A stretch of 64,000 nt of DNA. Source: a virus (lineage: Duplodnaviria; Heunggongvirae; Uroviricota; Caudoviricetes). Shown here in pieces: positions 2,845 through 40,818 of this stretch. Positions within the stretch are counted from its first letter, which is position 1. Every line of letters starts with the position of its first letter. The position numbers were made by a program, and so were the translations under genes. The stretch is from the IMG/VR virus record IMGVR_UViG_3300045007_000064, positions 60,236 to 124,235 of that record. One strand, written 5' to 3'. The notes under the pieces are model-generated. The model saw only the letters and a list, made by a program, of their open reading frames with translations, was not told where the DNA came from and made no database searches.

Positions 2845-3231
2845 TCAAGCCCAGTTGTCAACCTGTTCGGGGATACGGGTCAGAAGCTCCCGGGGGACGC
2901 GACCCGCAACGAGGTCACCGAAGTCCCAGCCCTCGGTGTTGACGTGGCCGCGCGCCTCGGTGATGAGGCCTTCCGGGGCCATCCACGGAGACTCGAAAAC
3001 TTCCTTCATCGCCACGTCGGCAACGAATTCGTCCAAGCCGTCAAACTTCAGACTCAAACGCATTCCCACAATGGGAATGACGCGCCACCCCTCGGTCGGG
3101 TCCAGACGGTCCCGAGCCGAGGAGAAGCGCATAAGTGCTGCGGCGCTCACATTGAACGACCAAGGCAGCACGATAAGCTGGAGACGCTTTCCGCCCCGGC
3201 GTCGATACTGGAGTACAAGCATTTCATCCAC
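2845..3231 (-). CDS. hypothetical protein
   Basis: Minus-strand ORF fits the surrounding gene order; the overlapping plus-strand ORFs look like antisense artefacts. Confidence 0.45.
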   Translation of the reverse strand: MDEMLVLQYRRRGGKRLQLIVLPWSFNVSAAALMRFSSARDRLDPTEGWRVIPIVGMRLSLKFDGLDEFVADVAMKEVFESPWMAPEGLITEARGHVNTEGWDFGDLVAGRVPRELLTRIPEQVDNWA

Positions 3232-3247
3232 GGCGGGCCTCCTCTAG

Positions 3248-3889
3248 CTACGCGATGATGTGATCTACCTTGCGGTACAGGTCTTCCAGTGTACCATCAT
3301 TGCGGATGGTTCTGTCAAAGTCGGTCTCGCGAACGCTGTTCTCGCTAGAGTGCTCGGAGTTGGCTCCGGCCTGGAGCGAGGGACGAACGACCCACCACAG
3401 CTCACCCTCTAGCTCGTCGGTGATCATGTCCAGCTCGTTCGGGTACCGGATACCGGTGATGATGACACCTGGTGCCGTTTTTGCGGCTTCCTTTGCACGA
3501 CGAACAACGATGTCGGTCCACACGGACTCGCTGATGATCTTCCGACCTACCTCAGTGCCGAGCTTCTGGAGCAGGCGGCGGACCTCCTCATTCGTCTTCG
3601 CTTCCACATAGCCGACCTCATCGAAGAGGTCCGAGTAGCGCTGGAAGTCCGCGATTTCCACAGTACGCTTCTTGCGATCCAGGAACCGGGAGAGCATGCC
3701 CTTCAGACCTGTTTCGGTCTTCGGGTCCGGAAGGTGGATCGGAACGTACGGGTCCAGGATGTAGAGCGCTTCCGCGAGGGCGTCACTCATTCCGAGCTTC
3801 ACCCATCCGTGCTTCTCCACGAGGTGGTCGGAGATTGCGTCCTTGCCGGAGGCGAGCTTGCCTCCGATGCCGATGATGTTGTTTACCAT
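3248..3889 (-). CDS. deoxynucleoside monophosphate kinase (T4 gp1-like)
   Basis: N-terminal P-loop GIGGKLASGKD, as in the phage dNMP kinase family. Confidence 0.6.
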   Translation of the reverse strand: MVNNIIGIGGKLASGKDAISDHLVEKHGWVKLGMSDALAEALYILDPYVPIHLPDPKTETGLKGMLSRFLDRKKRTVEIADFQRYSDLFDEVGYVEAKTNEEVRRLLQKLGTEVGRKIISESVWTDIVVRRAKEAAKTAPGVIITGIRYPNELDMITDELEGELWWVVRPSLQAGANSEHSSENSVRETDFDRTIRNDGTLEDLYRKVDHIIA

Positions 3890-4497
3890 GGATTGGTTCC
3901 TAGGGTTGCGAGTAGTTCCTGTCGTTCAGCCTCTTCGGCTTTGTCCTCTGCGATTTCCTCTAGAACGATCTTCCACTGATCCGAGGTCCAGTCCGTGATA
4001 CGGTAGCCAGGCTGGTCCCGGTTGTAGGGTGCGTCAACGTACACCTGAGTCCAGGTGGCGTTTTCCTTGTTCGGGATCGGGTGCTTGTCGTCAAAGAGGA
4101 CATCACCCGCAACGATGGTCTTATCACGCGCGAGAATGAGCTTCTTCGCCAGGTCGAGGCCGAAGTGCTCCTCCACCCAGGCGTACTTGTCCGAGGCTCC
4201 GGTGGGGTTGGTGATCCACGGCGCAGACAGGAAGAAGACCTCGTGGCCCATAGCCACAGCCTCGTGAACGGCGTCCACGGCTCCCTCGTACGGCTCCAGG
4301 TCTCGGTAGAAACCCTTGTGGTTCATGAGGGCGTCGATAGCCGCAACCTCTTCCGGCGTGCGATTCTGCCAGAGATTGAAGCTCGCGTGGTTTTCGAGTA
4401 CGATACTCGTCAGTAGAGGATACTGCTCGGCACGCAGCGCATCAAAGCGACGGCGGAAGTGCGCGACTGTATCGTCTAGGTCAAATAGAATTCGCAT
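3883..4497 (-). CDS. 5'(3')-deoxyribonucleotidase (HAD superfamily, NT5C-like)
   Basis: HAD motif I DLDDTV near the N-terminus; length and later motifs match NT5C nucleotidases. Confidence 0.6.
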   Translation of the reverse strand: MRILFDLDDTVAHFRRRFDALRAEQYPLLTSIVLENHASFNLWQNRTPEEVAAIDALMNHKGFYRDLEPYEGAVDAVHEAVAMGHEVFFLSAPWITNPTGASDKYAWVEEHFGLDLAKKLILARDKTIVAGDVLFDDKHPIPNKENATWTQVYVDAPYNRDQPGYRITDWTSDQWKIVLEEIAEDKAEEAERQELLATLGTNPW

Positions 4498-6038: not shown

Positions 6039-8070
6039 TGCCCTTGTCCTCTCGGGTCCATAGTCGAGTGTTTCCCATAGCTACAAACTCTGCCTGGGTT
6101 GTTCCCATGTAGGCGTTCTCGATGTCGGTGCCGTAGCTCCGCTCGAAGAACGCGATGGTATCTTCAGTATAGCTGGTTGTGCCCGTCTGATGAACTCGCT
6201 TGGCCTCCCAGCGGAATCGCAGCTCCTTGCCGTTGTCCGTGATCGTCAGTAGGCTGTAAGCGCCCCATCCCTGTTCCGGCGTGTTGGTAACGGTGATCGC
6301 GCCGTTGGCGATGTCCCAGCCGGTAGAGCCATCCCCGGTCCAACTGTTGCGGTTGAACCCCGAGATATTCAGGGACGGAATGCCCTTGAAGCGGTACTGA
6401 GTTCCGGTGCGTGTACCGGAGTCCGCCTGAAGGGAATGCGAGTCTCCTCCGATAATGACCATCTTCTTCTTTAGAGCGGGTCGAGCATCGATGAAGTTCT
6501 CTAGCTCCGTAGTCTCCGAGTTGAATGAGGCCCAACGACCGTTACCGTTGTTCATGGCTGTCCACGAGCACCACCACACAACCAGAGCTACGTCTGAGGA
6601 GTCGTTCGCGGCCTGTAGAGCGTCCTTGAATGCCTGCTTCTGGGCAGCACCTAGGAATGTCCTAGGCTCCGCCACAGCGTCCGGGTCGTCCTTGTTGGTC
6701 CAGTTGTCGGTCTGGATGAACATGACGCGTCCGACCTGCCACATGCGCCCCGCAGAGTCATTCGAGAGGTAGTCGGGAACCGCACCCGAGAATGTCCGCC
6801 ACTGCGTGTTGGTCGCAGGGTCGGTGTAGCCCATGTTCAGAGGGGACGCCGATGCACCCGCATCGAGGATGATGCGGTCGTGATTGTCCCACGTCCAATG
6901 GAAAGGAATGCGGTCGAGCATGTACTGGAAGTTCGATGCCGTGAGACTAGAATTGACCGCTGTGCGCCATGCCGTGTCGGTGGTAGGGTCGGCGTAGTGG
7001 AGGTCACCCATGTGGCTGATGAATTCAGGATTCTTGTCAGCCATTGCACGGAACACGGGATTATTGGACGCCGTGAACTGACAGGAGCCACCAATAGCGA
7101 TGAAGGAGGAGGGGGTGCCTGCCGCCTTCTTGGTCTTCGCACGGACGATGTTCACGTCCGTCTGGAGAACGCCGTCAACTTCGAACTTGACCGTGTAAAC
7201 CGTATCAACTGTCAGCCCCGTGAATGCCGCGTTACCCCAAGATGTGGTCGCATTCACCGTCATAGTGGTACGCTGAAGCTCCGTGGTTCCGGCTGCGTCA
7301 TATAGCACCGCTACAACGCTGGAGCCACCAAGTCGTGCCGCGCCCACCGTGAGAGCGGTAGTACCGGCGTGAGTGACCGCGTGTCCACCGATCCGACCCG
7401 TAGACACCGGCTGGTTTGCGGTGCCAATGGCGTAGAGGAATGCGCTGGAGTTGGAGGCGTGGCTGTTGGTGAATGTTCCAGTGGTGTCGCCCACAGCTCC
7501 CGCCGTAGGCATGGGCTTCTCGGCAAGGACGATAGCGTTGGGGTTAGCGTCTCCGGATGTGTTGTGCGCTTCAAAAACGAGGCTGAATCCGTTGTTGATG
7601 GTAGGCGCATTGTCAATCGCATTGGTACGCTCCATCGCGATGTACATTGCCGTGTAATCATTTGCGGGGGTAGTAATACTCGGTGCGGTGGTAGAAAAGG
7701 CTCCACCAGATGCCGCACGGGTACCGATAGCACCGACGACAGGAGTCGCAGAGGAGTTCCATCCTGAGATGGTGATAGGAACTACTCGCCATCCGTCTGA
7801 TCCGCTACGAGTCAGAGTATAAGTCGTATCCCCGGCCTCGAATGTCTTTGTAAAGGCGGTCAGTTTACCCGTACCGGTAGCCGGAGCATTCATGATCCGG
7901 GTCCACGGCGAGGGCATTGTCCAGTTGGAGGATGCCGTGTCAGCCGCCGCAACGATGACCAGGATGAGGTCACCCACCTTCGAGGAGGCATGCGGAGTAA
8001 CGGTCAGGGTACCGGCTGAGGCCTGACCGACTGCCCCGAGAAGCGTACCGGCTGAATAAGAAAGTGCCAT
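6010..8070 (-). CDS. minor tail protein with a C-terminal PhoD-like metallophosphatase domain
   Basis: The Thr/Ala/Gly-rich N-terminal half resembles tail fibre shafts. The C-terminal half carries metallophosphatase motifs GDLHYAD and WDNHD. Confidence 0.55.
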   Translation of the reverse strand: MALSYSAGTLLGAVGQASAGTLTVTPHASSKVGDLILVIVAAADTASSNWTMPSPWTRIMNAPATGTGKLTAFTKTFEAGDTTYTLTRSGSDGWRVVPITISGWNSSATPVVGAIGTRAASGGAFSTTAPSITTPANDYTAMYIAMERTNAIDNAPTINNGFSLVFEAHNTSGDANPNAIVLAEKPMPTAGAVGDTTGTFTNSHASNSSAFLYAIGTANQPVSTGRIGGHAVTHAGTTALTVGAARLGGSSVVAVLYDAAGTTELQRTTMTVNATTSWGNAAFTGLTVDTVYTVKFEVDGVLQTDVNIVRAKTKKAAGTPSSFIAIGGSCQFTASNNPVFRAMADKNPEFISHMGDLHYADPTTDTAWRTAVNSSLTASNFQYMLDRIPFHWTWDNHDRIILDAGASASPLNMGYTDPATNTQWRTFSGAVPDYLSNDSAGRMWQVGRVMFIQTDNWTNKDDPDAVAEPRTFLGAAQKQAFKDALQAANDSSDVALVVWWCSWTAMNNGNGRWASFNSETTELENFIDARPALKKKMVIIGGDSHSLQADSGTRTGTQYRFKGIPSLNISGFNRNSWTGDGSTGWDIANGAITVTNTPEQGWGAYSLLTITDNGKELRFRWEAKRVHQTGTTSYTEDTIAFFERSYGTDIENAYMGTTQAEFVAMGNTRLWTREDKGSAYTPGTVA

Positions 8071-26805: not shown

Positions 26806-26837
26806 GATTACATTCTACCTCAGTTATAGAGAAAACA

Positions 26838-26872
26838 AAAGCGCCCCTCTTCGAAAAGAGGGGCGCTTCTGC
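26838..26872 (-). terminator. rho-independent terminator of rsr
   Basis: 12-bp stem AGCGCCCCTCTT / AAGAGGGGCGCT with a CGAA loop, then a T-tract on the minus strand. Confidence 0.65.
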
Positions 26873-26877
26873 TTAAG

Positions 26878-28581
26878 TCAGAACTCGCCGCGAGCGAAGG
26901 CCGACACGAGGGCCGGAGCCGCCGAGTCGAATCCTGCGATGTCCAGGCTGTTCTTGTCGTTCGGGTCGATCAGCGTGTTCGGTGTCGCCTCCGTGGAGAG
27001 GAAGATCACCTTGGCGTCGATTCCCGTCTCCCGTCGATACTTCTCCAGGGCCTCGAAGGGCTGGATGTCTCCGGCCCAGGTCTCGTTGTCCGTGAGGATA
27101 AGGAAGACCTCGGGGCGCAGACCCTTCTCCAGGGCGTACATGATCGGCACGGCGATGTCAGTACCGCCCATCGGCAGACGGCGAACGTCGTTGATCACGT
27201 CATCGAGACGCCGGTTGGGCGAAACGATGCGGTCGAGGTCCGTGACCGCCTGGCTGTAGTGATCCTTCTCCTTGGCCTCGGGGACCTGGTTCCGACGACC
27301 GTAGCCGTAGCGGTACCCGCCGCGTCCGCCAGCGTAGCTGGTGAAGCCGACGATGTGAGTCTCCGGCTCGGTTGCAGCCGTCACGAGGGCGATTGCAGCC
27401 GTGGCCTCACGGGGAGTCAGTACAGGGCGATCCTTGCCGTAGCCGTAGCCGTAGAAGCCGTCCATGGAACCGGACACGTCCAGGCCGATCAGGTACTTCT
27501 TGCCCGCGGGCACAACGTTCTTGAACGCCAGGTAGAAGGCCTTGTCCAGGGCGTCGATGACCTCGCGGCTCGGCGTCCAGACGGTGGAACCCTTCTGGGA
27601 CTTGCCCGCCGCGTAGGTCTTCAGCGCGGTCAGCACGGCGATGGGGTGGATACGAGCGCGCTCGATTTCCTCCTTGCTCGTGAGACGCTTGACGACCTCG
27701 CCCAGACGAGAGCCATCCTTCAGCTTCTCGAAGAAGCCGAGGTTGGTCAGTCGCGGGAGCTGGCGCAGCAGCGCACCGAGCGGCAGGTTGCCGTCCAGAA
27801 GCGCGTCCCACGTCTCACGCTTGTTCAGCGCCTCGGTGGGCAGCATCTCCCAGGTCAGGCCGTACTCACGAATGAGTGCCGGAACATCGGCATCGGCAGC
27901 CTGCGCAAGCAGGAAGCCCTTGACCAGCTCCGGAGCCTTGGAGGCGTCATCGTGCAGGAACCACTCACCCAGGCCCTGCCACGCGGCATCCTGAGTCTTC
28001 GGGTGGGTCGTGCGGAAGATGTCACGGTGCGTCCAGCCCTCACGCTGACGGTACTTGACGATCTGGTAGGCAGCCTTGTCGGCGTCCTTACCCACGTACC
28101 AGTCTCCGACAGCGGTCTTCAGAGCGCGGCCCCAGCCACGGAACTGAAGCGCGAAGTTGACGAACTGAATCAGCGTGGTGCCCGTACGAGCAACCGCGTT
28201 CAGCTTGGACAGCGCGTACCGGCGTGCCTCAACCGATCCTGTGGACGCGGCGATGGCAAGCGCGAACAGTCCGGCGTCCTGCTTGGGAGCGCGACCCTGG
28301 GTCGAGTACTCCACGATGAGGTCCACGAGCTGGCGTGAACCCTCGTCGGTGGAGGCAACGCGCTGGACAGCCTGCGCGTTCTCCAGAGCGAGCTTGGCAC
28401 CGGGCGTGTAGAAGTTGCTCTCAGCGCCGAGGATCAGGAACCGCTTGACGCGCTCGATGTCCTCCAGCTTGAAGGTGTACCCTCCGGCAGCGTTCTTGAT
28501 CTGCTCCGGGCGTGCCTTCTGGCTCTGCGGGGTTGCCGTCATGCCCTTGCGGGTGACAACCGTCTTCAGGGATGATCCCAT
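26878..28581 (-). CDS. rsr: Ro60-related protein Rsr (TROVE domain plus vWA/MIDAS domain)
   Basis: The TROVE-like N-terminal region and the C-terminal vWA MIDAS motif GLDVSGSM match the layout of bacterial Rsr. Start taken at MGSSLKTVV. Confidence 0.75.
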   Translation of the reverse strand: MGSSLKTVVTRKGMTATPQSQKARPEQIKNAAGGYTFKLEDIERVKRFLILGAESNFYTPGAKLALENAQAVQRVASTDEGSRQLVDLIVEYSTQGRAPKQDAGLFALAIAASTGSVEARRYALSKLNAVARTGTTLIQFVNFALQFRGWGRALKTAVGDWYVGKDADKAAYQIVKYRQREGWTHRDIFRTTHPKTQDAAWQGLGEWFLHDDASKAPELVKGFLLAQAADADVPALIREYGLTWEMLPTEALNKRETWDALLDGNLPLGALLRQLPRLTNLGFFEKLKDGSRLGEVVKRLTSKEEIERARIHPIAVLTALKTYAAGKSQKGSTVWTPSREVIDALDKAFYLAFKNVVPAGKKYLIGLDVSGSMDGFYGYGYGKDRPVLTPREATAAIALVTAATEPETHIVGFTSYAGGRGGYRYGYGRRNQVPEAKEKDHYSQAVTDLDRIVSPNRRLDDVINDVRRLPMGGTDIAVPIMYALEKGLRPEVFLILTDNETWAGDIQPFEALEKYRRETGIDAKVIFLSTEATPNTLIDPNDKNSLDIAGFDSAAPALVSAFARGEF

Positions 28582-28614
28582 GATGTATGTCCTTTCTTCG
28601 GCTCGTCCATAGAC

Positions 28615-28650
28615 GAACATTGCCCCTAACCTATCACGAAGGCAGGGGCA
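28615..28650 (-). promoter_or_regulatory. proximal promoter of rsr
   Basis: Minus-strand TTGACA, a 17-nt spacer, then TAGGTT. The leader continues AAUGUUCG...GAGCCGAAG...AAAGGAC before the ATG. Confidence 0.5.
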
Positions 28651-28734
28651 TGTCAAGTGTTAAAGCTGAACATGTTGTTGCGCATGGGGTTCGTTCAAAG
28701 AGATAACCCATACACTTCGGCTCGGCTTCGTGAT

Positions 28735-28775
28735 GATCTTAGGGTACCACACATCTGCGCTATGTGCAAACGAGA
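28735..28775 (-). promoter_or_regulatory. distal promoter of rsr; copy A of the repeated promoter-and-leader module
   Basis: Minus-strand TTGCAC, a 17-nt spacer, then TACCCT, followed by the leader motif CGAAGCCGAGCCGAAG...GGGTTATC. Confidence 0.45.
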
Positions 28776-28834
28776 GTCCCACCCGTACTTAGGTTTCGGG
28801 GTGGGACTCTCTGGCTCGCATTACGCACTTACTA

Positions 28835-30655
28835 CTATGGCAGAAGCTCGCGGAACTTGTCAAGTAGACCAGCGAGAGCGATGGCTTCATCCTTCGAGAG
28901 GGTGATCGTCCACTGATCCTTCGGGGTCTCGGGCTTCGGGTCAACCGGAGTGGTCGGCTTCTCGGCAGCGAATCCCTTTGCCAGTTCGACAATACGATCC
29001 AGGTTCATGCTCGGACCCGGGCAAGCCGTAGCTGCACCGGGGGTCTCGCGGTGACCGATGACGTGCGTGCGGTCAATCGGGAATCCGTAGCGCTTGGATG
29101 CCCAGGCTACCAACTTAGCGATGGCGATGTGGCTCGCTTCCGAGATTCCCCAGTTCGGGTCTCCGGAGGTGTTCTGGGTCTCCACCGTGACGGCGTTGTA
29201 GTCGAACGCACCCGAGGTCCATGCGCGGAAGTTGTCGGGCGGTACAATCTCAGACACCGATCCGTCCGCACCGATCAGCCAGTTGGGGCTGACCTTGCGG
29301 TCGTTTGCGTTCATGAACCGATCACGCAAGCCAACAACCGAGGTGGTTGCAGCCGCGTGGTGGATGACAAAGTACTGAACCTTATCTCCCGGTCGGCGCG
29401 GGCTGGAGTTGGAGGAGTGATCCCACCACACGGATTCCGGATACGTCGCCTTGACAGGCTTCGGGTACTGAACCGGCTTCGGGTCCGCGGGGATCGAAAC
29501 CGACGTGAACTTCTTGTCCGTGTTCAAGAACTCCTGGAGCTTGCGGATTGTGTCGGGGCCAATGGCACCGTCAACAGTAGCGCCAACGTTGATCTGGAGA
29601 GCCTTCGCGGTGTTCGGACCAACCTGACCGTCCTGCGTGATACCTACGGCCTTCTGGAATGCCTTCCAGGTGTTCGGGCCTAGCTCGCCGTCCTCGGTCG
29701 ATCCTACACGCTTCTGGAACGCCTTGATCGTGAGCGGACCCCACTGACCGTCAACCGTCAGCTTGGTCGGCGTCGGAGTAGGTGTCGGGGCGGGGGTGGC
29801 AGGCTTAGGCTTGAAGCCTCCGTTGTTGAGGCTCGTCTGTAGGGCCTTGATCGTGTTGGGACCCATCTGGCCGTCTACAGTCGTGCCGATGGCCTGCTGG
29901 AGGGCGCTGTAGGTCTTCGGACCCAGCTCGCCGTCAACCGCCACACCAAGCCACTTCTGGAGGGCCTTGGTGGTCGCAGGACCCCACTGACCGTCAGCCG
30001 TAACGCCGAGGCGCTGCTGTAGAACCTTCACGGTCGCAGGACCGAGCTTGCCGTCAACAGTGAGCTTGGCCTTGCCAGCCTGAACCTCGTTGTAGTACTT
30101 CTGGTGTGCGGTCTGCGTACCGGCACCCCACTGTCCGTCAATCGCTCCCGAGTATCCGTAGGCACGGAGGAATGTCTGGTAGCGCTTGTAGGCTGCGGTG
30201 GTGGCTGCACCCTGCTGACCGTCCACAGCCAGCTTCTCGCCGCGAGACTGGTTGAGCCATGCCTGACGGTTCTTCGTGTCCTGGTTACCGGCAGACGCTC
30301 CGCCTCCGCTGGTGCGGTAGCGGTCCTCGTTCGGGAAGTACTCGAAGTGCCACGGCTCGACAAGCTTTCCGTTACGGTAAACGGTACGACGCCAGCCGTG
30401 AGACTGAAGCATCGCTACGTGGTTCTGGCCTTCGTTCGTGTCGATAGCCGAACCCTTCTCGTGGAGAGAGGTTCCGGGGCGCGCAGCGATGGGGTAGCCG
30501 TAGCGCTGGTAGCGGTCCCAGTGGGCCTGCTGCTGAGCGCGGGTACGGCCCGCCTCGGTGATCTGCATGCGGTGGCCCAGGGCCTTGTCGATGCGGAAGA
30601 GGGACTGTGCGGGGGCGTCATTCAGCCAGCCGCGTCCGCCGCCAAGATCAGTCAT
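28835..30655 (-). CDS. endolysin (lysin A) with M15 peptidase, peptidoglycan-binding repeats and amidase-2 domains
   Basis: N-terminal VanY/M15-like region (SLHEKGSAID). Six or more LGxxxDGxxGPxT peptidoglycan-binding repeats. C-terminal N-acetylmuramoyl-L-alanine amidase-like region. Confidence 0.85.
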   Translation of the reverse strand: MTDLGGGRGWLNDAPAQSLFRIDKALGHRMQITEAGRTRAQQQAHWDRYQRYGYPIAARPGTSLHEKGSAIDTNEGQNHVAMLQSHGWRRTVYRNGKLVEPWHFEYFPNEDRYRTSGGGASAGNQDTKNRQAWLNQSRGEKLAVDGQQGAATTAAYKRYQTFLRAYGYSGAIDGQWGAGTQTAHQKYYNEVQAGKAKLTVDGKLGPATVKVLQQRLGVTADGQWGPATTKALQKWLGVAVDGELGPKTYSALQQAIGTTVDGQMGPNTIKALQTSLNNGGFKPKPATPAPTPTPTPTKLTVDGQWGPLTIKAFQKRVGSTEDGELGPNTWKAFQKAVGITQDGQVGPNTAKALQINVGATVDGAIGPDTIRKLQEFLNTDKKFTSVSIPADPKPVQYPKPVKATYPESVWWDHSSNSSPRRPGDKVQYFVIHHAAATTSVVGLRDRFMNANDRKVSPNWLIGADGSVSEIVPPDNFRAWTSGAFDYNAVTVETQNTSGDPNWGISEASHIAIAKLVAWASKRYGFPIDRTHVIGHRETPGAATACPGPSMNLDRIVELAKGFAAEKPTTPVDPKPETPKDQWTITLSKDEAIALAGLLDKFRELLP

Positions 30656-30803: not shown

Positions 30804-30868
30804 ACTACTATCATACTACTCGCACAAATTCTGAGTTCTGGGCTGGTATGATACTGTCGGCGGACACG

Positions 30869-30902
30869 AAAAAGCCCCGATCAGCAATGACCGGGGCTTT
30901 TC
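30869..30902. terminator. bidirectional rho-independent terminator
   Basis: AAAAGCCCCG-loop-CGGGGCTTTT. Confidence 0.6.
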
Positions 30903-30992
30903 TAGAGGATCGTGAACATGTTGTGAAGATCGGTGTTTGAGCTAGGTTCCGGACCAGCGCACGAGTCGAACGTGCTTTCGCCTGTGTTTGAG

Positions 30993-31025
30993 ACAGATAA
31001 CCGATACCTCTTCGGCTCACGAAGT
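30993..31025 (-). repeat. copy B of the leader motif
   Basis: Plus strand reads GATAACCGATACCTCTTCGGCTCACGAAG; the reverse complement is GAGCCGAAGAGGUAUCGGUUAUC. Confidence 0.5.
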
Positions 31026-31085
31026 AAATCGCGAAGATGGTGTGGGAGTCGGAGAGCAGCCGTAGCTGCGATTGCGACCTATTCG

Positions 31086-31120
31086 TAAGATAACCGACTG
31101 TCCCTTCGCCTCGCGAAGTC
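31086..31120 (-). repeat. copy C of the leader motif
   Basis: Plus strand reads GATAACCGACTGTCCCTTCGCCTCGCGAAG. Confidence 0.45.
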
Positions 31121-31192
31121 TATGTGTAGTTTTCAAAGTAGTGGAGAACGAACATGGGGTGCAAGTGGGGATTGGATTCATTTACAGTGAAG

Positions 31193-31258
31193 GATAACCC
31201 ACGAGCTTCGGCTCGCTCTCGATAAATCTATAGTACCACAGCTAGAAGCTGTGTGCAA
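31193..31258 (-). promoter_or_regulatory. promoter D plus leader (third copy of the module)
   Basis: Minus-strand TTGCAC at 31253-31258, a 17-nt spacer, TACTAT at 31230-31235, then the leader GAGCGAGCCGAAGCUCGUGGGUUAUCC. Confidence 0.5.
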
Positions 31259-33196: not shown

Positions 33197-33273
33197 TGGT
33201 GGAGACGAGCGGAATCAAACCCCTCACACTCTGCTTGCAAAACAAAGTCGCCATTCTTGGTACATGCGCCCCC
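33197..33273 (-). pseudogene. degenerate tRNA-Ala(TGC)-like element, CCA encoded
   Basis: Acceptor, T-arm (TTTGATT loop) and CCA are intact. The anticodon region CTTTGTTTTGCAAGCAG cannot form a proper stem, and the D-arm is aberrant. Confidence 0.35.
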
Positions 33274-33291: not shown

Positions 33292-33368
33292 TGGTGCCCA
33301 CACCTAGAGTTGAACTAGGACTTACGAGTTATCAGCTCGTCGTGCAGAGACCGCTACACCATGCGGGC
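33292..33368 (-). tRNA. tRNA-Ile (anticodon GAT), CCA encoded
   Basis: Perfect cloverleaf with anticodon loop CTGATAA and T-loop TTCAACT. Confidence 0.75.
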
Positions 33369-33579
33369 AGACAACATACAGGGCGAACATGGGGTGCCAA
33401 CGGAGATTCCATTCTTTCATGGTGTCATACGGGCCTTTCCCCGTCAGGTCATTCACTCTGACCCGAAGGCCATTCACCGGAGTGACACGTCCCAGATTAC
33501 CCTCTGGGAGGTTACTGCAAAGTTACGTGGACCTACGTCCACGGTTTGTGGTGGTTACATTACCTATTAGTGTGATAAC

Positions 33580-33647
33580 CGTATAGCTTCGGCTCGCCCT
33601 GTTGAGTTGTTGGTATCTATCGTAGCACACTTTCTCGGAGTGTGCAA
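33580..33647 (-). promoter_or_regulatory. promoter E plus leader, driving the first tRNA array
   Basis: Minus-strand TTGCAC at 33642-33647, a 17-nt spacer, TACGAT at 33619-33624, then the leader GAGCCGAAGCUAUACGGUUAUCAC. Confidence 0.5.
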
Positions 33648-34829: not shown

Positions 34830-34907
34830 CGCCCCAGGCAGGATTCGAACCCGCATTTTCATCCAGTTACGATTCTCGGAGGTAGAAGCTCCGGTCGGTA
34901 CTGAGGC
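34830..34907 (-). pseudogene. tRNA-like element with an Arg(TCT)-like anticodon hairpin and aberrant architecture
   Basis: Intact 7-bp acceptor stem, T-arm GCGGG-TTCGAAT-CCTGC and hairpin CGGAG-CTTCTAC-CTCCG, but no D-arm and a 22-nt insert before the T-arm. Confidence 0.3.
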
Positions 34908-36737: not shown

Positions 36738-37964
36738 TCAGCCCTTGACGCAGAGGATCGTCTGAAGGTGCGCGACCTTCTCGACCAGGTTGCTCTGAGC
36801 CTCGACCACCGCGTGTAGGTCCTTGTAGGCGTGAGAGATTTCGTCAATCACACCCGCGTCCTTGCGCGACTCGATGCCCTTCATGGTCTCAGCCACGTCC
36901 GCCACCGTGAAGCGGCGCTTGGCCTCACCACGGCTCATCTTCCGACCGGCACCGTGAGATGCGGAGGTCAGAGACGCCTCGTTACCGAGACCACGGACGA
37001 TGTACGAGCCGGTTGCCATCGATCCGGGGATCAACGCCAGCTCGCCCTTCTTCGCGGAGATTGCGCCCTTACGGGTCACGATCATGTCCACCGGCTTGCC
37101 ATCCACGAGGTGAGTCTCCTCCGCCACGTAGTTGTGGTGGCAGTTGATTTCGTCCTCGAAGCGCACCTTGGAGATGACGCGAGCCAGCTCACGCTTCACG
37201 AGGGACATCATCACCGTACGGCTGGTCGCCGCGTAGTTCTGCGCCCACATGAGGTCGTGCCGGTACTCCAGCATCTCCGGGGTGTCCTTCAGGAAGACCG
37301 CCAGCTCCTTGATCGGAAGGTCCTGGTTGTGATCCAGGGTCTTCGCGATGGAGATGTGGCGCTCTGCCAGCTCCTTGCCGATGTTCCGCGAACCGGAATG
37401 CAGCGTGATCCAGATGTTGTCATCCTCGTCCGTGCACAGTTCGATGAAGTGGTTACCTCCACCGAGGGTACCGAGCTGCTTACCGGCACGCTCCTCCAAC
37501 TTGTCCGCACCCGGGGCGCGGAGAGAGTCGAAGCCGTTCTTCAGCTTGGTGACCTCGGAGTTCAGGCCGTTACCGCCGATGTCTCGGAGGTCCTTCGAGG
37601 ACAGCGCCTCACCGTGGGAGTTGAAGCCGACCGGCACCGCGCGCTCGATGGCGCTACGGAGCTTGTGGAGGATGCCGTCAACGTCCTCACGAGTGAGGTT
37701 CGTCTTCACGGCGTTCACACCACAGCCGATGTCCACACCCACAGCGGACGGACAGATCGCGCTCGTGGAGCCGATCACCGTACCGATGGTCGCGCCAGCG
37801 CCCAGGTGAACGTCGGGCATCACGCGCAGCTCGTCAACCCACGGCAGCGCGCCGACGTTGCGAATCTGCTGAACCGCCTGCGGTTCGATTTCCCACTCGT
37901 TCGCCCACATGAGTGTGCGAGTCTTTGCACCCGGCAATTCAACCGGGAAGTTGTTGTCAGTCAT
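36738..37964 (-). CDS. rtcB: RtcB-family RNA 3'-phosphate ligase
   Basis: VMPDVHLGAGATIG, part of the metal-binding histidine signature, in a 408-aa protein. Confidence 0.9.
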   Translation of the reverse strand: MTDNNFPVELPGAKTRTLMWANEWEIEPQAVQQIRNVGALPWVDELRVMPDVHLGAGATIGTVIGSTSAICPSAVGVDIGCGVNAVKTNLTREDVDGILHKLRSAIERAVPVGFNSHGEALSSKDLRDIGGNGLNSEVTKLKNGFDSLRAPGADKLEERAGKQLGTLGGGNHFIELCTDEDDNIWITLHSGSRNIGKELAERHISIAKTLDHNQDLPIKELAVFLKDTPEMLEYRHDLMWAQNYAATSRTVMMSLVKRELARVISKVRFEDEINCHHNYVAEETHLVDGKPVDMIVTRKGAISAKKGELALIPGSMATGSYIVRGLGNEASLTSASHGAGRKMSRGEAKRRFTVADVAETMKGIESRKDAGVIDEISHAYKDLHAVVEAQSNLVEKVAHLQTILCVKG

Positions 37965-38254
37965 TTCGTGTCCTCGTAGTGGAAGAAGATTTCGGTGTCG
38001 GGTCGAAGGTAAATCTTGTACCCGTTTTGGTTGATCAGAATCGTCCCGTTCTGGTGAACGTAGATCGACTCAATGGTGTAGACATGCGGCTTGGTGATCC
38101 AGGCCTTAGCGGTATCATCCCAGTGTCGGGAAGGCTTAGCCTTCCCCCGGCGACTACCGTAGACGATGGACTCTACCGTACGCCCTAGGTCGCTGATCCG
38201 TAGTTCGGATGCTGGAACTGGAATCTTCGAGACGGTCATGCGTTGTACGTCCAC
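37961..38254 (-). CDS. hypothetical protein
   Basis: ATGA coupling to the rtcB start. Confidence 0.45.
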   Translation of the reverse strand: MDVQRMTVSKIPVPASELRISDLGRTVESIVYGSRRGKAKPSRHWDDTAKAWITKPHVYTIESIYVHQNGTILINQNGYKIYLRPDTEIFFHYEDTK

Positions 38255-38697
38255 AGCTCGATGTCTGCTCGATACCGCAGGGCAACTTCGGTGAGGACGA
38301 CCTCGACCATACGTTGGTCCAGACCGCCGATACCGCTGCCGATCCGAGGCAGGGCCAGAGTCTCGATGCCCACCTCATCACACTTCTGGAGGGCCGCAGC
38401 CACACCGCCGATGAGCAGGTCGTAGGAGGCGTTCGCCCCGGGAAGCTCCTGCGAGGCGATGTTCAGAACGAGCGCAGGCTGTCCCCACGGGGTCTTCAGG
38501 CTCCAGGAGAACACGCCTCCCGGCTCCAGGGTGCGGTTGCTGCACGCCTCCCGGTAGGCCTCGAACATCTCAGGGAACCGCTTGCTGAACTGCGCAGCGA
38601 TCCCCGCGCCCATAACGCCCACGGTGTTGACGCCGTGGCCGATGGCTCGCGAAGTCGTGGTGAAGATGTCGCCGTAGCGGTGGATAAGCTTTGTCAT
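38236..38697 (-). CDS. macro-domain protein (ADP-ribose or ADP-ribose-1''-phosphate processing)
   Basis: GDIF...GVNTVGVMGAGIAAQF and LPRIGSGIGG are macro-domain signatures. Confidence 0.7.
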   Translation of the reverse strand: MTKLIHRYGDIFTTTSRAIGHGVNTVGVMGAGIAAQFSKRFPEMFEAYREACSNRTLEPGGVFSWSLKTPWGQPALVLNIASQELPGANASYDLLIGGVAAALQKCDEVGIETLALPRIGSGIGGLDQRMVEVVLTEVALRYRADIELWTYNA

Positions 38698-38736
38698 GGT
38701 CTCAGCCTAACAGGTGTCGCCTGCTGTGTCAAGGCG

Positions 38737-39012
38737 TCAGTACGCCGTGTTGTCCTCGTGACCGCAGGAACCCTTGTGATTGACGGGCTTCTTGCATGGT
38801 TTCCATGTCCAGTCACTCGCATCCCATGCGTCCACGTCCCGGTAGGCCTGACCGCACTCATAGCTGTCGCTGTGGGTGTGGTAGAACCCGGCTCGACTGT
38901 TCGGGAGCTTGCCCAGCTCGGGTCCCGTCAGCTTCTTGATTCCTTGCTGCACTTCCGATAGCTCGTGGAGTAGTCTCTCCTCTTCGCGCTGAAGATCGCT
39001 GAGGGCGCTCAT
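38737..39012 (-). CDS. hypothetical cysteine/histidine-containing protein
   Basis: Start taken at MSALSDL. Confidence 0.4.
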   Translation of the reverse strand: MSALSDLQREEERLLHELSEVQQGIKKLTGPELGKLPNSRAGFYHTHSDSYECGQAYRDVDAWDASDWTWKPCKKPVNHKGSCGHEDNTAY

Positions 39013-39386
39013 TCGCTGTCTCCCTTGCTCAGGTGGTCGTAGATGACGCTGATCTTGACCCACTCGGGGGCCTCGGCGTTCGCGGCGGCGAGCATCTGCT
39101 TGCGCGCGGGAGGGTTGGACGTGTGGATGGTCAGCTCCTCAGGCCAGACCTCGTGCTCGATCATCCAGTTCAGCACCTTCATGCCGGTGTCGTCACCGCC
39201 GAGGTCGTGATCCAGGCTGACCTCCTCGATCCCGCCACCAAGAGGGCGTCCACGCTTGTCGTTGTTTCGACGCCACGTCTCCAGCCAGTCGATGGCCTCA
39301 GCGCTTGTCCGCGCGTGAACGTGCCATGGAATGCTATTGGAGTCCCACGGCATGGGACGCTCGTCGTCTACCCAAATCTTCATCAC
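39009..39386 (-). CDS. hypothetical protein, WVDDERP paralogue 1
   Basis: N-terminus MMKIWVDDERPMP...VSLDHDLG. Confidence 0.5.
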   Translation of the reverse strand: MMKIWVDDERPMPWDSNSIPWHVHARTSAEAIDWLETWRRNNDKRGRPLGGGIEEVSLDHDLGGDDTGMKVLNWMIEHEVWPEELTIHTSNPPARKQMLAAANAEAPEWVKISVIYDHLSKGDSE

Positions 39387-39694
39387 TTACCGTCCTGGTT
39401 GTCGTCGTCTACGAGGATCAGACCCTCCGGCCCTGCTTCCTTGGCGTAGGAGAGAATCTGGTAGCGACCGGTGCCACCGCCCGAGTGGGAGTGAAGTTCA
39501 CGAGGCCAGATGCCACGGCTTTCCATCCACTGGAGAACGTCGAAGCCGGAGTCCCAGCCGATCAGCACGTAGTCCAGCGAGACCACATCGTAGTCATTCT
39601 CCTGGAGCAGGCTGCGCGCATCGTCGGCGGTCTTGGCTACGTCCCAGTTCTCGTCCGGAGCGGGGCGCTCATCGTCTACCCAGAGTTTCTTCAT
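39383..39694 (-). CDS. hypothetical protein, WVDDERP paralogue 2
   Basis: N-terminus MKKLWVDDERPAP...VVSLDYVL; tandem duplicate of the neighbouring gene. Confidence 0.5.
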   Translation of the reverse strand: MKKLWVDDERPAPDENWDVAKTADDARSLLQENDYDVVSLDYVLIGWDSGFDVLQWMESRGIWPRELHSHSGGGTGRYQILSYAKEAGPEGLILVDDDNQDGK

Positions 39695-39744
39695 ACTGCC
39701 AGGGTACACGAGAAAGGCCCCGCTGTCAAGCGAGGCCTTTCCGG

Positions 39745-40818
39745 TCAGCGGTCGTGCTTCAGGAGGTACCGCTGGGAGATTGCCTTCCACGAGGCCCGAG
39801 CACCGTTCGGGAACGTTGCTACCTCGGTGTTCCGCCAGACGACACCCTCGACAGGCCGCTGAGGGTTGATCAGGCTCTTCAGGTTCTCGACCTGAGCCAG
39901 AGCCTCGTCCTGGTCCTTCGGGTAGGGCAGGTCGTGGATCGGCACGGCGATGTCGAGCGCCCACTGTGGCCAGGAGGCACGAGGAAGCTCCTCGCGGTCA
40001 ACCTGGATCGTGAAGAGTCGGAACTGGACTTGCTTGACCTGGAGAGGGTTGCCCTGGATTCCAGGACCAAAAATCTCCCCCTGGAGAGCGATTTCAGCCT
40101 CCACCAGGTAATCCTGAGCGGGGTACCAGTTGGTCATCTTCTCGTGGAGGTCCAGCTCGCGAGCCAGCTTCCACATGGAGTTGTGGCTGGTGTCCTCGAT
40201 GTCCCAGTTGCGCGAGGCCACGCCGTTCTCGTTGTTGGCGTAGAAGACGGTCATTGACGAGCCGTCAATCTTCTCGGTGGCGACCCAGGCATCCGGAGTC
40301 GGCTGAGAGCCGTCGAAGAGCCAGGAGAGGTTCTGCACGCGCTCCTCGTCGGTCTTGCGGAAGATGGACGGGAAGGCACCCTTGGCGCTTCCTGCAAGCT
40401 CGGCGGGGATGGGCGGGTCCCACTTCTCCAGTCCGGGAATGGCGGACGTGATATCCATACCGAGCAGAGCAATGCCCTGAGCCACGGCGAAAGCTTCATC
40501 CTCGAACTGAGCGAAGGGAAGCACGAGGCCCTGGCTGTAGACGCCACGGAGCTTCGCAGTCTTCAGGACGTGGCCCTCCACGCCCTCCTGGTTCTTCCGC
40601 GCTCCACGAGGCGCGAGGAAGGTGAATCGGGGGTCGTCCAGCGGCAGGAACGAGTCGATTTCGAAGTAGACCACAAGGTCTCCAACCTCGAACTCTCCGA
40701 TGCGCACGACGACATCCCAGCCGCGCACACGCGCGACCTCGATGCTGTCGGCTCCCTCGATGGGACGCAGCTCTGTGATTTCCTCGACCGTTGCGAGGGC
40801 GCGTTCTTCTGTAGTCAT
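39745..40818 (-). CDS. ATP-dependent RNA ligase (nucleotidyltransferase KxDG family)
   Basis: Motif I EKIDGSS with the covalent-adenylation lysine, an N-terminal OB-like region, and later ligase motifs. Confidence 0.65.
   Translation of the reverse strand: MTTEERALATVEEITELRPIEGADSIEVARVRGWDVVVRIGEFEVGDLVVYFEIDSFLPLDDPRFTFLAPRGARKNQEGVEGHVLKTAKLRGVYSQGLVLPFAQFEDEAFAVAQGIALLGMDITSAIPGLEKWDPPIPAELAGSAKGAFPSIFRKTDEERVQNLSWLFDGSQPTPDAWVATEKIDGSSMTVFYANNENGVASRNWDIEDTSHNSMWKLARELDLHEKMTNWYPAQDYLVEAEIALQGEIFGPGIQGNPLQVKQVQFRLFTIQVDREELPRASWPQWALDIAVPIHDLPYPKDQDEALAQVENLKSLINPQRPVEGVVWRNTEVATFPNGARASWKAISQRYLLKHDR

What the first reader, a model, noticed from the sequence alone, without database searches (positions are those of the whole stretch)
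26878..28775. A phage-encoded Ro60/Rsr homologue with dedicated tandem promoters and its own terminator
The 567-aa protein (TROVE-like N-terminal domain plus a vWA domain with MIDAS motif GLDVSGSM) forms a single-gene unit. It has two sigma-A-like promoters (TTGACA-17-TAGGTT and TTGCAC-17-TACCCT) and a 12-bp-stem terminator. In bacteria Rsr works with Y RNAs and exoribonucleases in RNA quality control and is frequently linked to rtcB. Here rtcB lies about 8 kb away on the same strand, so a phage copy points to manipulation of RNA surveillance or tRNA repair during infection.
Basis: partly seen in the sequence, partly recalled or inferred. Interest (0 to 1): 0.7.

Follow-up and report, generated by a model that had tools for sequence, protein, structure and literature searches.

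The report
Phage Ro60 gene with Y RNAs
The gene is a genuine phage copy of the RNA-binding protein Ro60, a kind already known from hundreds of phages.

Summary
A 567-aa ORF on the minus strand (26878-28581) has TROVE and Ro60-vWA domains with an intact MIDAS. It aligns end to end with solved Ro60/Rsr structures (E 6e-90). Both promoter-like hexamer pairs and a strong terminator are present, and rtcB lies 8.2 kb upstream on the same strand.

Phage Ro60 is well known: 355 phage records carry a homologue, and the literature runs from 2003 to 2025. The gene is also not a single-gene unit. The distal 'promoter' (TTGCAC-17-TACCCT) drives a 70-nt Y RNA (28733-28660) lying between the two promoters.

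Four more Y RNAs sit upstream: a three-gene array at 31222-30906 and a 231-nt one at 33605-33375. They share a promoter type found nowhere else in the window. Their stems covary strongly (score 0.553 against 0.179 in shuffles). A model built from them finds Y RNAs beside bacterial Ro60 genes, with 14 of 14 hits on the Ro strand.

The rsr leader holds a circularly permuted copy of the Ro-binding helix abutting the Shine-Dalgarno sequence. The same element lies at the same position upstream of Ro60 genes in Nocardia, Armatimonadota and Myxococcota. I found no published description. It suggests that Ro60 represses its own translation.

Verdict: a new member of a known kind, with moderate interest.

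The parts
26878..28581 (-). rsr/Ro60 coding sequence, 567 aa, with stop TGA at 26880-26878. N-terminal TROVE/HEAT ring domain and C-terminal vWA domain with MIDAS (DVSGS, GGTD, TDNET).
   Evidence: Pfam TROVE 4.9e-43 and vWA_Ro60 1.2e-42. PDB 2NVO (D. radiodurans Rsr) 5.9e-90, 1YVP (Xenopus Ro60) 2.2e-83, 9NEN (human RO60) 1.5e-81.
26830..26868 (-). Intrinsic terminator of rsr. 13-bp G+C stem at 26839-26868 (extendable to 19 bp), UUCG loop, then UUUUGUUUUCU.
   Evidence: (-32.2 kcal/mol, z -6.46).
28590..28622 (-). rsr leader element: CAAU-GUUCGUC-UAUG-GACGAGC-CGAAG-AAAGGA. A hairpin whose 3' arm plus tail is the 9-nt Y-RNA motif GAGCCGAAG (28604-28596), running into the Shine-Dalgarno sequence (28595-28590). 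It is a circularly permuted copy of the Y-RNA Ro-binding helix.
   Evidence: Model R2 scores it 34.1 bits. The same element lies at the same position in 4 related phages and about 20 bacterial Ro60 loci.
28628..28656 (-). Proximal promoter-like site P2: TTGACA, 17 nt, TAGGTT. A conserved hairpin (28650-28621, UGCCCCUG.../...UAGGGGCA) overlaps it. P2 probably drives the rsr mRNA, whose 5' end would be the leader hairpin.
   Evidence: TTGACA/TTGACT is conserved in A3Wally, the masked relative, Zooman, Big4 and Pumpernickel. The hairpin is compensatory in Pumpernickel. Fold.
28660..28733 (-). Y RNA 1, of the YrlB-like short-hairpin type. Outer stem 28729-28724 with 28667-28662. GAGC (28723-28720) pairs with GUUC (28671-28668). 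CGAAG 28719-28715. Upper stem 28714-28707 with 28688-28681. UUAUC 28706-28702. It lacks the roughly 40-nt insert, carrying a GGUUCGAAUCC T-loop-like motif, that is present at the orthologous position in A3Wally, Zooman and Big4.
   Evidence: Rfam sbRNA RF01656, 30.1 bits, local E 1.9e-4. Also, (R1, 48.8 bits, E 4e-11; MFE reproduces the architecture, z -2.3).
28741..28769 (-). Distal promoter P1: TTGCAC, 17 nt, TACCCT, with extended -10 TGTGG. This is the Y-RNA promoter, not a dedicated rsr promoter.
   Evidence: The pattern TTGYAC-N14-TGNKAYNNT has only three exact matches in 64 kb, and each lies directly upstream of a Y RNA gene. Conserved in relatives.
28772..28811 (-). Terminator hairpin of the upstream endolysin gene (28835-30655). 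It marks the 5' boundary of the Y RNA-rsr unit.
   Evidence: -33.9 kcal/mol, z -7.35. Conserved in A3Wally and Pumpernickel, with a different stem sequence at the same place in Zooman.
30866..31258 (-). Y RNA array. Promoter 31258-31230, then Y RNA 2 (31222-31142) and Y RNA 3 (31120-31029, variant GAGGCGAAG paired with CUUC). Then Y RNA 4 (31026-30906, with T-arm-like GCACG-UUCGACU-CGUGC, so YrlA-like) and a terminator at 30902-30868.
33375..33647 (-). Promoter 33647-33619 and the long Y RNA 5 (33605-33375, with a 170-nt variable domain). It abuts tRNA-Ile (33368) and heads a tRNA operon.
   Evidence: Orthologues in A3Wally, Zooman and Cece have covarying outer stems.
36738..37964 (-). rtcB RNA ligase. 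Context only, in a separate transcription unit.
   Evidence: Pfam RtcB 1.6e-116.

Best explanation
The gene encodes a functional Ro60/Rsr orthologue of a roughly 190-kb Microbacterium-type actinophage. It is the protein half of a phage-encoded Ro60-Y RNA ribonucleoprotein system.

Shown here:
- The protein has the full Ro60 domain set with an intact MIDAS.
Four more Y RNAs lie within 5 kb on the same strand.
- All five share one architecture: outer stem, GAGC-CGAAG, upper stem, UUAUC, variable domain, upper stem, CA(Y)-GUUC, outer stem. Both stems covary.
- All five have the same dedicated promoter type.
- The module is the same one found beside bacterial Ro60 genes.

Inferred from the D. radiodurans, Salmonella and Thermus-phage phiLo systems: Ro60 binds the GAGC-CGAAG/CAUGUUC helix of each Y RNA. 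The variable domains (one with a T-arm) then tether the ring to other factors such as host PNPase, or gate its cavity. This would direct degradation or handling of structured or damaged RNA during infection. The phage also carries 43 tRNA genes, RtcB and a second RNA ligase.

The rsr mRNA probably starts at P2 with a hairpin that mimics the Ro-binding helix next to its Shine-Dalgarno sequence. The most likely role of that hairpin is feedback control of Ro60 synthesis.
For: Protein identity.

Y RNA 1:
- Rfam nematode stem-bulge (Y-RNA homologue) model, 30.1 bits, local E 1.9e-4.
- Conserved with indels typical of RNA, not protein, in 5 relatives.
- The MFE fold gives the expected architecture.

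Family of modules:
- 27 modules were collected from 4 phages. 88.4% of cells are paired against 67.7% in shuffles. The covariation score is 0.553 against 0.179 (0/500 shuffles reach it), and slid controls give 0.07-0.11. 11 of 14 pairs change on both sides.
- GAGSCGAAG occurs 10 times in the window against 1.9 expected.
- The promoter pattern has 3 exact hits, all in front of Y genes.

Homology to known Y RNAs:
- Model R1 hits 14 sites in 80 bacterial Ro60 loci. All are on the Ro strand and within about 1.1 kb of the gene.
- R1 also hits upstream of Ro in mycobacteriophage ET08, where YrlA was published (PMC4201824).
- The GNCGAAN0-1G motif of PMC4201824 is present in all five.
- Rfam YrlA gives sub-threshold hits on the tRNA-like modules of relatives.

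Published precedent for a phage Ro60-Yrl-PNPase complex: PMC12135203.
Against: - No expression, binding or phenotype data exist for this phage. Y RNA ends are inferred from promoter position and stems only.
- No window module reaches any Rfam gathering score, and RF02553 (YrlA) gives no hit in the window even at E<=5.
- 3' partners and upper-stem partners were chosen partly by pairing, which inflates the pairing statistics somewhat. The independent CAU-GYUC motif fixes the register.
- The PNPase tethering step is entirely by analogy.
- Y RNA 1 has only a 3-U tail, so whether it is terminated or processed from a Y-rsr co-transcript is open.
Confidence: 0.82

Rival explanations
1. A stand-alone, single-gene Ro60 unit is driven by two tandem promoters that both serve the protein. 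Ro60 acts alone or with host RNAs.
For: Both hexamer pairs and the flanking terminators exist. Y RNA 1 has a weak U-tail in this phage, so P1 transcripts may read through into rsr.
Against: The 74 nt after P1 form a conserved, covarying Y-RNA module. The P1 promoter type occurs only in front of Y RNA genes. Relatives carry a 5-U run after the Y RNA stem.
Confidence: 0.06
2. The repeated modules are not Ro60 ligands. They would be tRNA-operon processing signals, tRNA-like decoys for host anticodon nucleases, or attenuators that merely sit near rsr.
For: They are interleaved with tRNA genes, and Y RNA 5 abuts tRNA-Ile. Some relatives' modules carry T- and D-arm-like hairpins, and one was annotated as a tRNA. 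PMC7790460 raises a decoy role for the YrlA tRNA-like domain, but in addition to Ro binding.
Against: The invariant part is exactly the published Ro-binding motif and helix, not the tRNA-like part, which is variable or absent. The same core is found specifically next to Ro60 genes in unrelated bacteria, 14/14 on the Ro strand.
Confidence: 0.07
3. The leader hairpin is an ordinary 5' stabilising stem-loop, a processing site, or a DNA-level palindromic operator. Its resemblance to the Y-RNA motif would be a relic of duplication, not a Ro60 binding site.
For: Short G+C hairpins at mRNA 5' ends are common. The hairpin fold is not exceptional thermodynamically (z about -1.6). Covariation rests on few independent lineages. 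The CGAAAGGAG tail overlaps a generic Shine-Dalgarno sequence.
Against: - The 8-nt motif G[AG]GCCG[AG][AG] lies within 45 nt upstream of the start in 16/79 bacterial Ro loci. 15 of those start at -19..-24. About 1.8 are expected for the whole 45-nt window.
- The 21 best hits of model R2 in 743 kb are all rsr leaders. These include the held-out loci L050, L012 and L070.
- Spacing is fixed to the start codon rather than to the promoter.
- In Pumpernickel the Y-RNA motif and the leader motif have both changed, to similar sequences.
Confidence: 0.45

Closest known systems
Mycobacteriophage Bxz1/ET08-type Ro60 (gp220) with YrlA-like RNAs (Pedulla 2003 as cited in PMC4201824; Chen et al. 2014, PMC4201824)
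   Same: An actinophage with many tRNA genes. The Ro60 orthologue is 43% identical over its full length. Several Y RNA modules lie upstream on the same strand with the same core (AGGCCGA..GGUUAYC..CAUGUCU).
   Different: A different phage lineage and host. The window has five Y RNAs in three transcription units with a dedicated promoter type. ET08 lacks the GAGCCGAAG leader hairpin.
Thermus phage phiLo Ro60 with Yrl1/Yrl2 (PMC12135203)
   Same: A phage-encoded Ro60 with Y-like RNAs carrying a CGAA motif, encoded just upstream. It has been shown biochemically to bind them and to form complexes with host PNPase.
   Different: No detectable close sequence relationship was tested here. phiLo has two Yrl RNAs. 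Nothing biochemical is known for the window's system.
Bacterial Rsr with YrlA/YrlB or Yrn1/Yrn2 (D. radiodurans, S. Typhimurium, M. smegmatis)
   Same: The protein aligns end to end with Rsr 2NVO. Y RNAs have the GNCGAAN0-1G motif and a 5'/3' terminal stem and are encoded near Ro60 on the same strand. One has a tRNA-like element and another is a short hairpin (YrlB-like), as described in PMC4201824.
   Different: More paralogues here: 5, and 6-8 per fetched locus in relatives. There is no adjacent rtcBA and no RtcR-type control. A G/Y/R-rich insertion of about 35 aa sits in the vWA domain.
Metazoan Y RNAs and nematode stem-bulge RNAs (Rfam RF01656)
   Same: Y RNA 1 shares the GNCCGAAG, GGGUUAUC and CA..UG.UC stem elements. 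It is picked up by the nematode sbRNA model.
   Different: Below the gathering score (30.1 against 38). Bacterial-type promoter. No pol III features.
Salmonella rsr-yrlBA-rtcBA RNA repair operon (PMC7790460)
   Same: Ro60, Y RNAs and RtcB are encoded by one genome on one strand.
   Different: They are not one operon here. rtcB is 8.2 kb away, behind terminators, an endolysin gene and tRNA genes. RtcR and sigma-54 control were not looked for.

Membership tests
Ro60/Rsr (TROVE) protein family | TROVE (HEAT-repeat ring) domain | tested here: met
   Pfam PF05731, E 4.9e-43, 148 bits against a cutoff of 23.
Ro60/Rsr (TROVE) protein family | C-terminal Ro60-type vWA domain with MIDAS residues (DxSxS...T...D) | tested here: met
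   PF25045, E 1.2e-42. D368-S370-S372, T474/D475 and T497/D498 are invariant in 9 phage Ro60s.
Ro60/Rsr (TROVE) protein family | Full-length collinear similarity to experimentally solved Ro60 proteins | tested here: met
   2NVO 5.9e-90, 1YVP 2.2e-83, 9NEN 1.5e-81. Residues 3-415 and 453-566 align.
Ro60/Rsr (TROVE) protein family | Ring-shaped three-dimensional structure | not tested
It was judged unnecessary given.
Ro60/Rsr (TROVE) protein family | Binds Y RNA | not testable with these tools
   Needs RIP or EMSA.
Bacterial/phage Y RNA (YrlA/YrlB type, Chen et al. 2014) | GNCGAAN0-1G motif near the 5' end | tested here: met
   GAGCCGAAG or GAGGCGAAG is present in all five modules.
Bacterial/phage Y RNA (YrlA/YrlB type, Chen et al. 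2014) | Long stem formed by the 5' and 3' ends and containing the Ro-binding site | tested here: met
   Covariation score 0.553 against 0.179 in shuffles, with 88% of cells paired. The MFE folds agree.
Bacterial/phage Y RNA (YrlA/YrlB type, Chen et al. 2014) | Encoded within about 4 kb of Ro60 on the same strand | tested here: met
   Y1 lies 79 nt upstream and Y2-Y4 lie 2.3-2.6 kb upstream. Y5 lies 4.8 kb upstream, slightly beyond the limit. All are on the minus strand.
Bacterial/phage Y RNA (YrlA/YrlB type, Chen et al. 2014) | At least one Y RNA per genome with a tRNA-like domain | tested here: inconclusive
   Y4 has a T-arm-like GCACG-UUCGACU-CGUGC and a UAGCUCA fragment. Neither Rfam YrlA nor tRNA models score it. 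Relatives' modules give YrlA hits of 25-52 bits.
Bacterial/phage Y RNA (YrlA/YrlB type, Chen et al. 2014) | Reaches the Rfam RF02553 gathering score (69 bits) | tested here: not met
   No RF02553 hit in the window at E<=5. The published ET08 region also reaches only 37 bits, so the threshold is too strict for actinophage Y RNAs.
rsr-yrlBA-rtcBA RNA repair operon | rsr, Y RNAs and rtcB co-transcribed in one operon | tested here: not met
   rtcB is 8.2 kb upstream. Terminators at 30902-30868 and 28811-28772, an endolysin gene, a band-7 gene and tRNA genes intervene.

The most novel reading that the evidence does not exclude
Ro60 controls its own synthesis through an operator in its mRNA that mimics a Y RNA. 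The rsr leader folds into the Ro-binding helix (GUUC.../...GAGC-CGAAG), closed by a loop where the Y RNA termini would be. The CGAA strand runs straight into the Shine-Dalgarno sequence. Free Ro60 would bind there and block ribosome entry. Y RNAs would compete for Ro60 and relieve the block, matching protein to Y RNA supply.

The element is not special to this phage. It occupies the same position, 19-25 nt before the start codon. It occurs in the related Microbacterium phages and in about a fifth to a quarter of the 79 bacterial Ro60 loci examined (Nocardia, Armatimonadota, Myxococcota). I found no description of it in the searchable literature. The two main reviews of bacterial Ro60 were not held and could not be checked.
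Probability: 0.4. Interest if true: 0.65.

Novelty: new member of a known kind. Interest (0 to 1): 0.42.

Why it matters
The second look adds three things.

1. These roughly 190-kb Microbacterium phages carry unusually many unannotated Y RNAs: 5 in this window and 6-8 in the fetched loci of relatives. They are organised like tRNA arrays, with their own promoter type. None is annotated in the GenBank records examined, and current Rfam thresholds miss them.
2. A close natural series of Y RNAs with and without the tRNA-like insert sits at one orthologous position. This is useful for asking what that domain does.
3. A conserved Y-RNA-mimic hairpin sits on the rsr ribosome-binding site in phages and three bacterial phyla. 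If it is a Ro60 operator, it would be the first known feedback circuit in Ro60/Y RNA biology, and it is directly testable with simple binding and reporter assays.

Tried and rejected
- Rfam at gathering thresholds found only tRNAs in the window. The Y RNA lead came only from the permissive E-value scan.
I kept them because they are conserved.
- My first automatic module finder was too strict and missed most modules. It was replaced by motif-anchored extraction with three manual overrides.
- Model R1 with filters off scored modules with long inserts poorly and found no further convincing copies. So there are five modules, not more.
- Four other GAGSCGAAG matches are not Y modules, because none has GTTATC downstream. 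The copies at 34540 and 32311 also have near-identical flanks in a relative's annotated CDS. The copies at 59703 and 60833 were not examined further.
- An R1 hit antisense to the Pumpernickel ribonucleotide reductase gene (L005 379-431, 22 bits) was not pursued and is probably chance.
- Two MAFFT runs of the leader mis-aligned the 5' arm. I used A4 even though three Nocardia rows are shifted by one column, so one search is a lower bound.
- The supplement of PMC4201824 and two reviews were not held. I therefore could not check published phage Y RNA coordinates or rule out an earlier mention of the leader element.
- An SD-sequestering alternative fold of the leader (AUGUUC with GGACAU) was rejected, because that pairing is not conserved in A3Wally.
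Full report
**1. The observation**

The feature is on the minus strand. The longest ORF is 26878..28656.

- Pfam gives TROVE (E 4.9e-43) and the Ro60-specific vWA domain (E 1.2e-42).
- The protein aligns over residues 3-415 and 453-566 with D. radiodurans Rsr (2NVO, E 5.9e-90), Xenopus Ro60 (1YVP, 2.2e-83) and human RO60 (9NEN, 1.5e-81).
- The MIDAS residues are invariant in nine phage Ro60s.
- Both hexamer pairs are present exactly as described: TTGACA 28656-28651, 17 nt, TAGGTT 28633-28628; and TTGCAC 28769-28764, 17 nt, TACCCT 28746-28741.
- A generic sigma-70 scan does not call them, because their -10 boxes are weak. They are conserved in relatives.
- The terminator after the stop codon is strong (stem 26839-26868, -32.2 kcal/mol, z -6.5).
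- rtcB is at 36738-37964(-), 8.2 kb upstream.

**2. Context**

The window comes from a large actinophage with 43 tRNA genes. Its nearest relatives in the phage collection are roughly 190-kb Microbacterium phages. A3Wally and a name-masked record are about 85% identical in DNA here. Zooman, Big4, Cece and Pumpernickel are more distant. All annotate the gene as 'Ro-like RNA binding protein'.

By tblastn, 355 phage records encode a homologue, mostly Mycobacterium and Streptomyces phages. Phage Ro60 has been known since the Bxz1-type mycobacteriophages, as cited in PMC4201824. Y-like RNAs next to phage Ro60 were reported for 22 phages (PMC4201824). A Thermus phage Ro60 has been solved with two Y-like RNAs and shown to complex with host PNPase (PMC12135203). 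A phage Ro60 is therefore not new in kind.

**3.

All relatives have an unannotated 300-500-bp gap upstream of Ro60. A permissive Rfam scan hit 28663-28729(-) with the nematode stem-bulge RNA family RF01656, which I recall (not checked here) is considered the nematode counterpart of Y RNAs. The score was 30.1 bits against a gathering score of 38, with E 1.9e-4 for the local search.

The sequence reads GAAGCC-GAGC-CGAAG-UGUAUGGG-UUAUC...CCCAUGCG-CAACAACAU-GUUC-AGCUU. It has a terminal stem, the GNCGAAN0-1G motif that PMC4201824 assigns to Ro60 recognition, an upper stem and a UUAUC box.

Alignment of the six upstream regions shows the following order:
1. The endolysin terminator.
2. P1 (TTGCAC-17-TACCAT/TACCCT, preceded by TGTGG).
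3. The Y RNA.
4. A U-run, 5 U in A3Wally but only 3 in the window.
5. P2 (TTGACA-17-TAAGCT/TAGGTT) embedded in a conserved hairpin.
6. A second hairpin.
7. The Shine-Dalgarno sequence.

A3Wally, Zooman and Big4 have an extra roughly 40-nt insert in the loop, carrying a GGUUCGAAUCC T-loop-like motif. The window lacks it, so its RNA is a 56-nt core hairpin. This resembles the 'long hairpin with a small loop' class (YrlB, Yrn2) described in PMC4201824. Cece has three tandem modules at this place.

**4. Five Y RNAs, one architecture, one promoter type**

Motif searches found five modules in the window, all on the minus strand and all intergenic:
- 28723: Y1.
- 31214, 31112 and 31018: a tandem array Y2-Y4, with a promoter at 31258-31230 and a terminator at 30902-30868.
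- 33595: Y5, 231 nt, abutting tRNA-Ile at 33368.

GAGSCGAAG occurs 10 times in the window against 1.9 expected. The promoter pattern TTGYAC-N14-TGNKAYNNT has only three exact matches in 64 kb, and each lies immediately upstream of Y1, the array or Y5. P1 is therefore a Y-RNA promoter. In the fetched loci, A3Wally and Zooman carry eight modules each and Cece six.

On a core alignment of 27 modules, the proposed structure has 88.4% of cells paired against 67.7% in shuffles. The covariation score is 0.553 against 0.179 (0 of 500 shuffles reach it). Slid controls give 0.07-0.11, and 11 of 14 pairs show changes on both sides. One instructive case is Y3, where GAGC>GAGG is matched by GUUC>CUUC.

There is a caveat. 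The 3' partners were chosen partly by pairing, so the percentage paired is somewhat inflated. The invariant CAU-GYUC box fixes the register independently. MFE folds reproduce the architecture for Y1-Y4 (z -1.6 to -3.1). Y4 contains a T-arm-like hairpin (GCACG-UUCGACU-CGUGC).

**5. These are ordinary Y RNAs**

A covariance model of the core (R1) recovers Y1, Y2 and Y4 in the window (49-53 bits). It also hits upstream of Ro60 in mycobacteriophage ET08 and within the tRNA array downstream of Ro60 in Gordonia phage Forza.

Over 80 bacterial Ro60 loci fetched with the protein alignment, it gives 14 hits. All are on the Ro60 strand and within about 1.1 kb of the gene. The taxa include Actinomycetota, Janthinobacterium, Verrucomicrobia, Rhodospirillales and Myxococcota, with the same G(A/G)GCCGAAG...GGGUUAU...CAUG(U/C)(U/C)C signature.

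Rfam's YrlA model gives only sub-threshold hits (25-52 bits against a gathering score of 69). These fall on the tRNA-like modules of relatives and of ET08, Farewell, FuzzBuster, Forza and Big4. It gives nothing in the window. The curated threshold is simply too strict for actinophage Y RNAs.

**6. The leader element**

A sixth copy of GAGCCGAAG lies at 28604-28596, 0 nt from the Shine-Dalgarno sequence. It is the 3' arm and tail of a hairpin: CAAU-GUUCGUC-UAUG-GACGAGC-CGAAG-AAAGGA. This is the Ro-binding helix of the Y RNAs (CAU-GUUC-stem / stem-GAGC-CGAAG) with the Y RNA termini closed by a loop. If P2 is used, the hairpin is the very 5' end of the mRNA.

A3Wally, the masked relative, Zooman, Big4 and Cece keep it, with changes that preserve pairing. 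Pumpernickel has replaced both the Y-RNA motif (GCGCCCCUGAU) and the leader motif (UGCCCCCUAAU) by similar sequences. This hints at co-evolution, but from a single case.

Evidence from bacterial Ro60 loci:
- The motif G[AG]GCCG[AG][AG] lies within 45 nt upstream of the start codon in 16 of 79 loci. In 15 of these it starts at -19 to -24. About 1.8 are expected for the whole 45-nt window from the motif's frequency in the same loci.
- Each copy is the 3' arm of a mismatch-free 4-8-bp hairpin followed by CG(A/G)A(A/G) and the Shine-Dalgarno sequence. An example is CACUU-GCCCC-GAU-GGGGC-CGAAAGGA in Capsulimonadaceae.
- The lineages are Nocardia, Armatimonadota and Myxococcota.
- The hairpin shows modest covariation: 94% paired against 82%, score 0.369 against 0.181, 0/500 shuffles reaching it.
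- A model of it (R2) was searched over 743 kb, covering the window, 10 phage loci and 80 bacterial loci. Its 21 best hits all fall immediately upstream of a Ro60 start codon. These include the loci L050, L012 and L070, which were not in the seed. The first hit elsewhere has E 0.025.

I found no description of such an element in the searchable literature. Two reviews could not be read.

The most economical reading is translational autoregulation, in which Ro60 bound to the leader occludes the Shine-Dalgarno sequence and Y RNAs compete for it. This is inference, and I put it at about 0.4. The main alternative is an ordinary 5' stabilising hairpin or processing site.

**7. Mechanism, with status of each step**

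Shown:
- Ro60 orthology.
- Five Y RNA genes with covarying Ro-type stems and a shared promoter.
- Homology of the core to bacterial Y RNAs.
- Unit boundaries set by terminators at 28811-28772 and 26868-26830.

Inferred from named precedents (D. radiodurans Rsr/Yrn1/PNPase, Salmonella Rsr/YrlA, phiLo Ro60/Yrl/PNPase):
- Ro60 binds the GAGC-CGAAG helix.
- The variable domains recruit partners such as PNPase or gate the ring.
- The RNP handles structured or damaged RNA during infection.

The neighbourhood is consistent with an RNA-repair and tRNA-maintenance theme. It includes 43 tRNAs, RtcB, an Rnl-type ligase at 39745-40818, a cyclic-phosphate-processing receiver domain at 39383-39964 and a Macro domain at 38236-38697. 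However, rtcB is not co-transcribed with rsr.

**8. Verdict**

The gene is a new member of a well-known kind. The added value lies in the unannotated Y RNA repertoire and the conserved leader mimic. Interest 0.42.

Noticed in passing
window 28590-28622 (-); bacterial loci L018, L022, L023, L027, L034, L039, L042, L043, L049, L050, L054, L055, L073, L074, L077 just upstream of the Ro60 start: A conserved hairpin followed by CCGAA and the Shine-Dalgarno sequence lies 19-25 nt before the Ro60 start codon. It occurs in phages and three bacterial phyla and mimics the Y-RNA Ro-binding helix. Model R2's 21 best hits in 743 kb are all at this position.
   Followed up: yes
window 36738-40818 (-): An RNA-repair gene cluster upstream of the tRNA/Y RNA region. 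It contains RtcB (36738-37964), a Macro domain protein (38236-38697), a 'cyclic-phosphate processing receiver' domain protein (39383-39964) and a PHA02142/Rnl-type RNA ligase (39745-40818).
   Followed up: partly
window 27226-27340 (-), protein residues about 415-452 and 383-392: G/Y/R-rich low-complexity insertions (YAGGRGGYRYGYGRRNQ..., GFYGYGYG) in the vWA domain near the MIDAS. They are present only in the roughly 190-kb Microbacterium phage clade and are variable among its members. They are absent from solved Ro60s and from other phage Ro60s.
   Followed up: partly
L009 (Microbacterium phage Big4) 3155-3274: An annotated 'tRNA-Ser(cga)' (3155-3222) overlaps a full-length sub-threshold Rfam YrlA hit (3167-3274, 31.7 bits). 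It is probably the tRNA-like domain of a Y RNA mis-called as a tRNA.
   Followed up: no
L006 (mycobacteriophage ET08) 3797-3970: The annotated hypothetical protein gp219 overlaps a Y RNA module (R1 hit 3870-3949; GACGGAGGCCGAAGG...CAUGUCUCCGUC). The ORF may be spurious.
   Followed up: no
L005 (Pumpernickel) 7118-7414 (-): The rsr-proximal Y RNA has GCGCCCCUGAU in place of GAGCCGAAG, and the rsr leader has UGCCCCCUAAU in place of GAGCCGAAG. This looks like a correlated change of both putative Ro sites in the most divergent Ro60 of the clade.
   Followed up: partly
L010 (Microbacterium phage FuzzBuster) 2152-2503: A 55-kb phage has three Y RNA modules directly upstream of Ro60, with a vertebrate-like GGGUCGA motif. 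The 3' strand of the last module (CACAUCUGAA) runs straight into the Shine-Dalgarno sequence (AGG). This is a non-permuted way of placing a Ro site on the ribosome-binding site.
   Followed up: no
window 33197-33273 (-) and 34830-34907 (-): A weak tmRNA/tRNA-like hit lies between tRNA-Ala and tRNA-Ile, and a borderline tRNA hit (29.6 bits) is not called by ARAGORN. These may be degenerate tRNA-like genes.
   Followed up: no
window 28621-28650 (-): A conserved G+C-rich hairpin spans the spacer and -10 of promoter P2, with a compensatory version in Pumpernickel. It may be a processing or termination signal for read-through from the Y RNA promoter, or a regulator of P2.
   Followed up: partly
L012 (uncultured Actinomycetota MAG, contig_28940) 2328-2983: The closest cellular-assembly Ro60 (53% identity) has two tandem Y modules (47 and 41 bits) and a leader-motif hit (21.5 bits). 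The layout matches the phage. It could be a prophage or the donor lineage.
   Followed up: no
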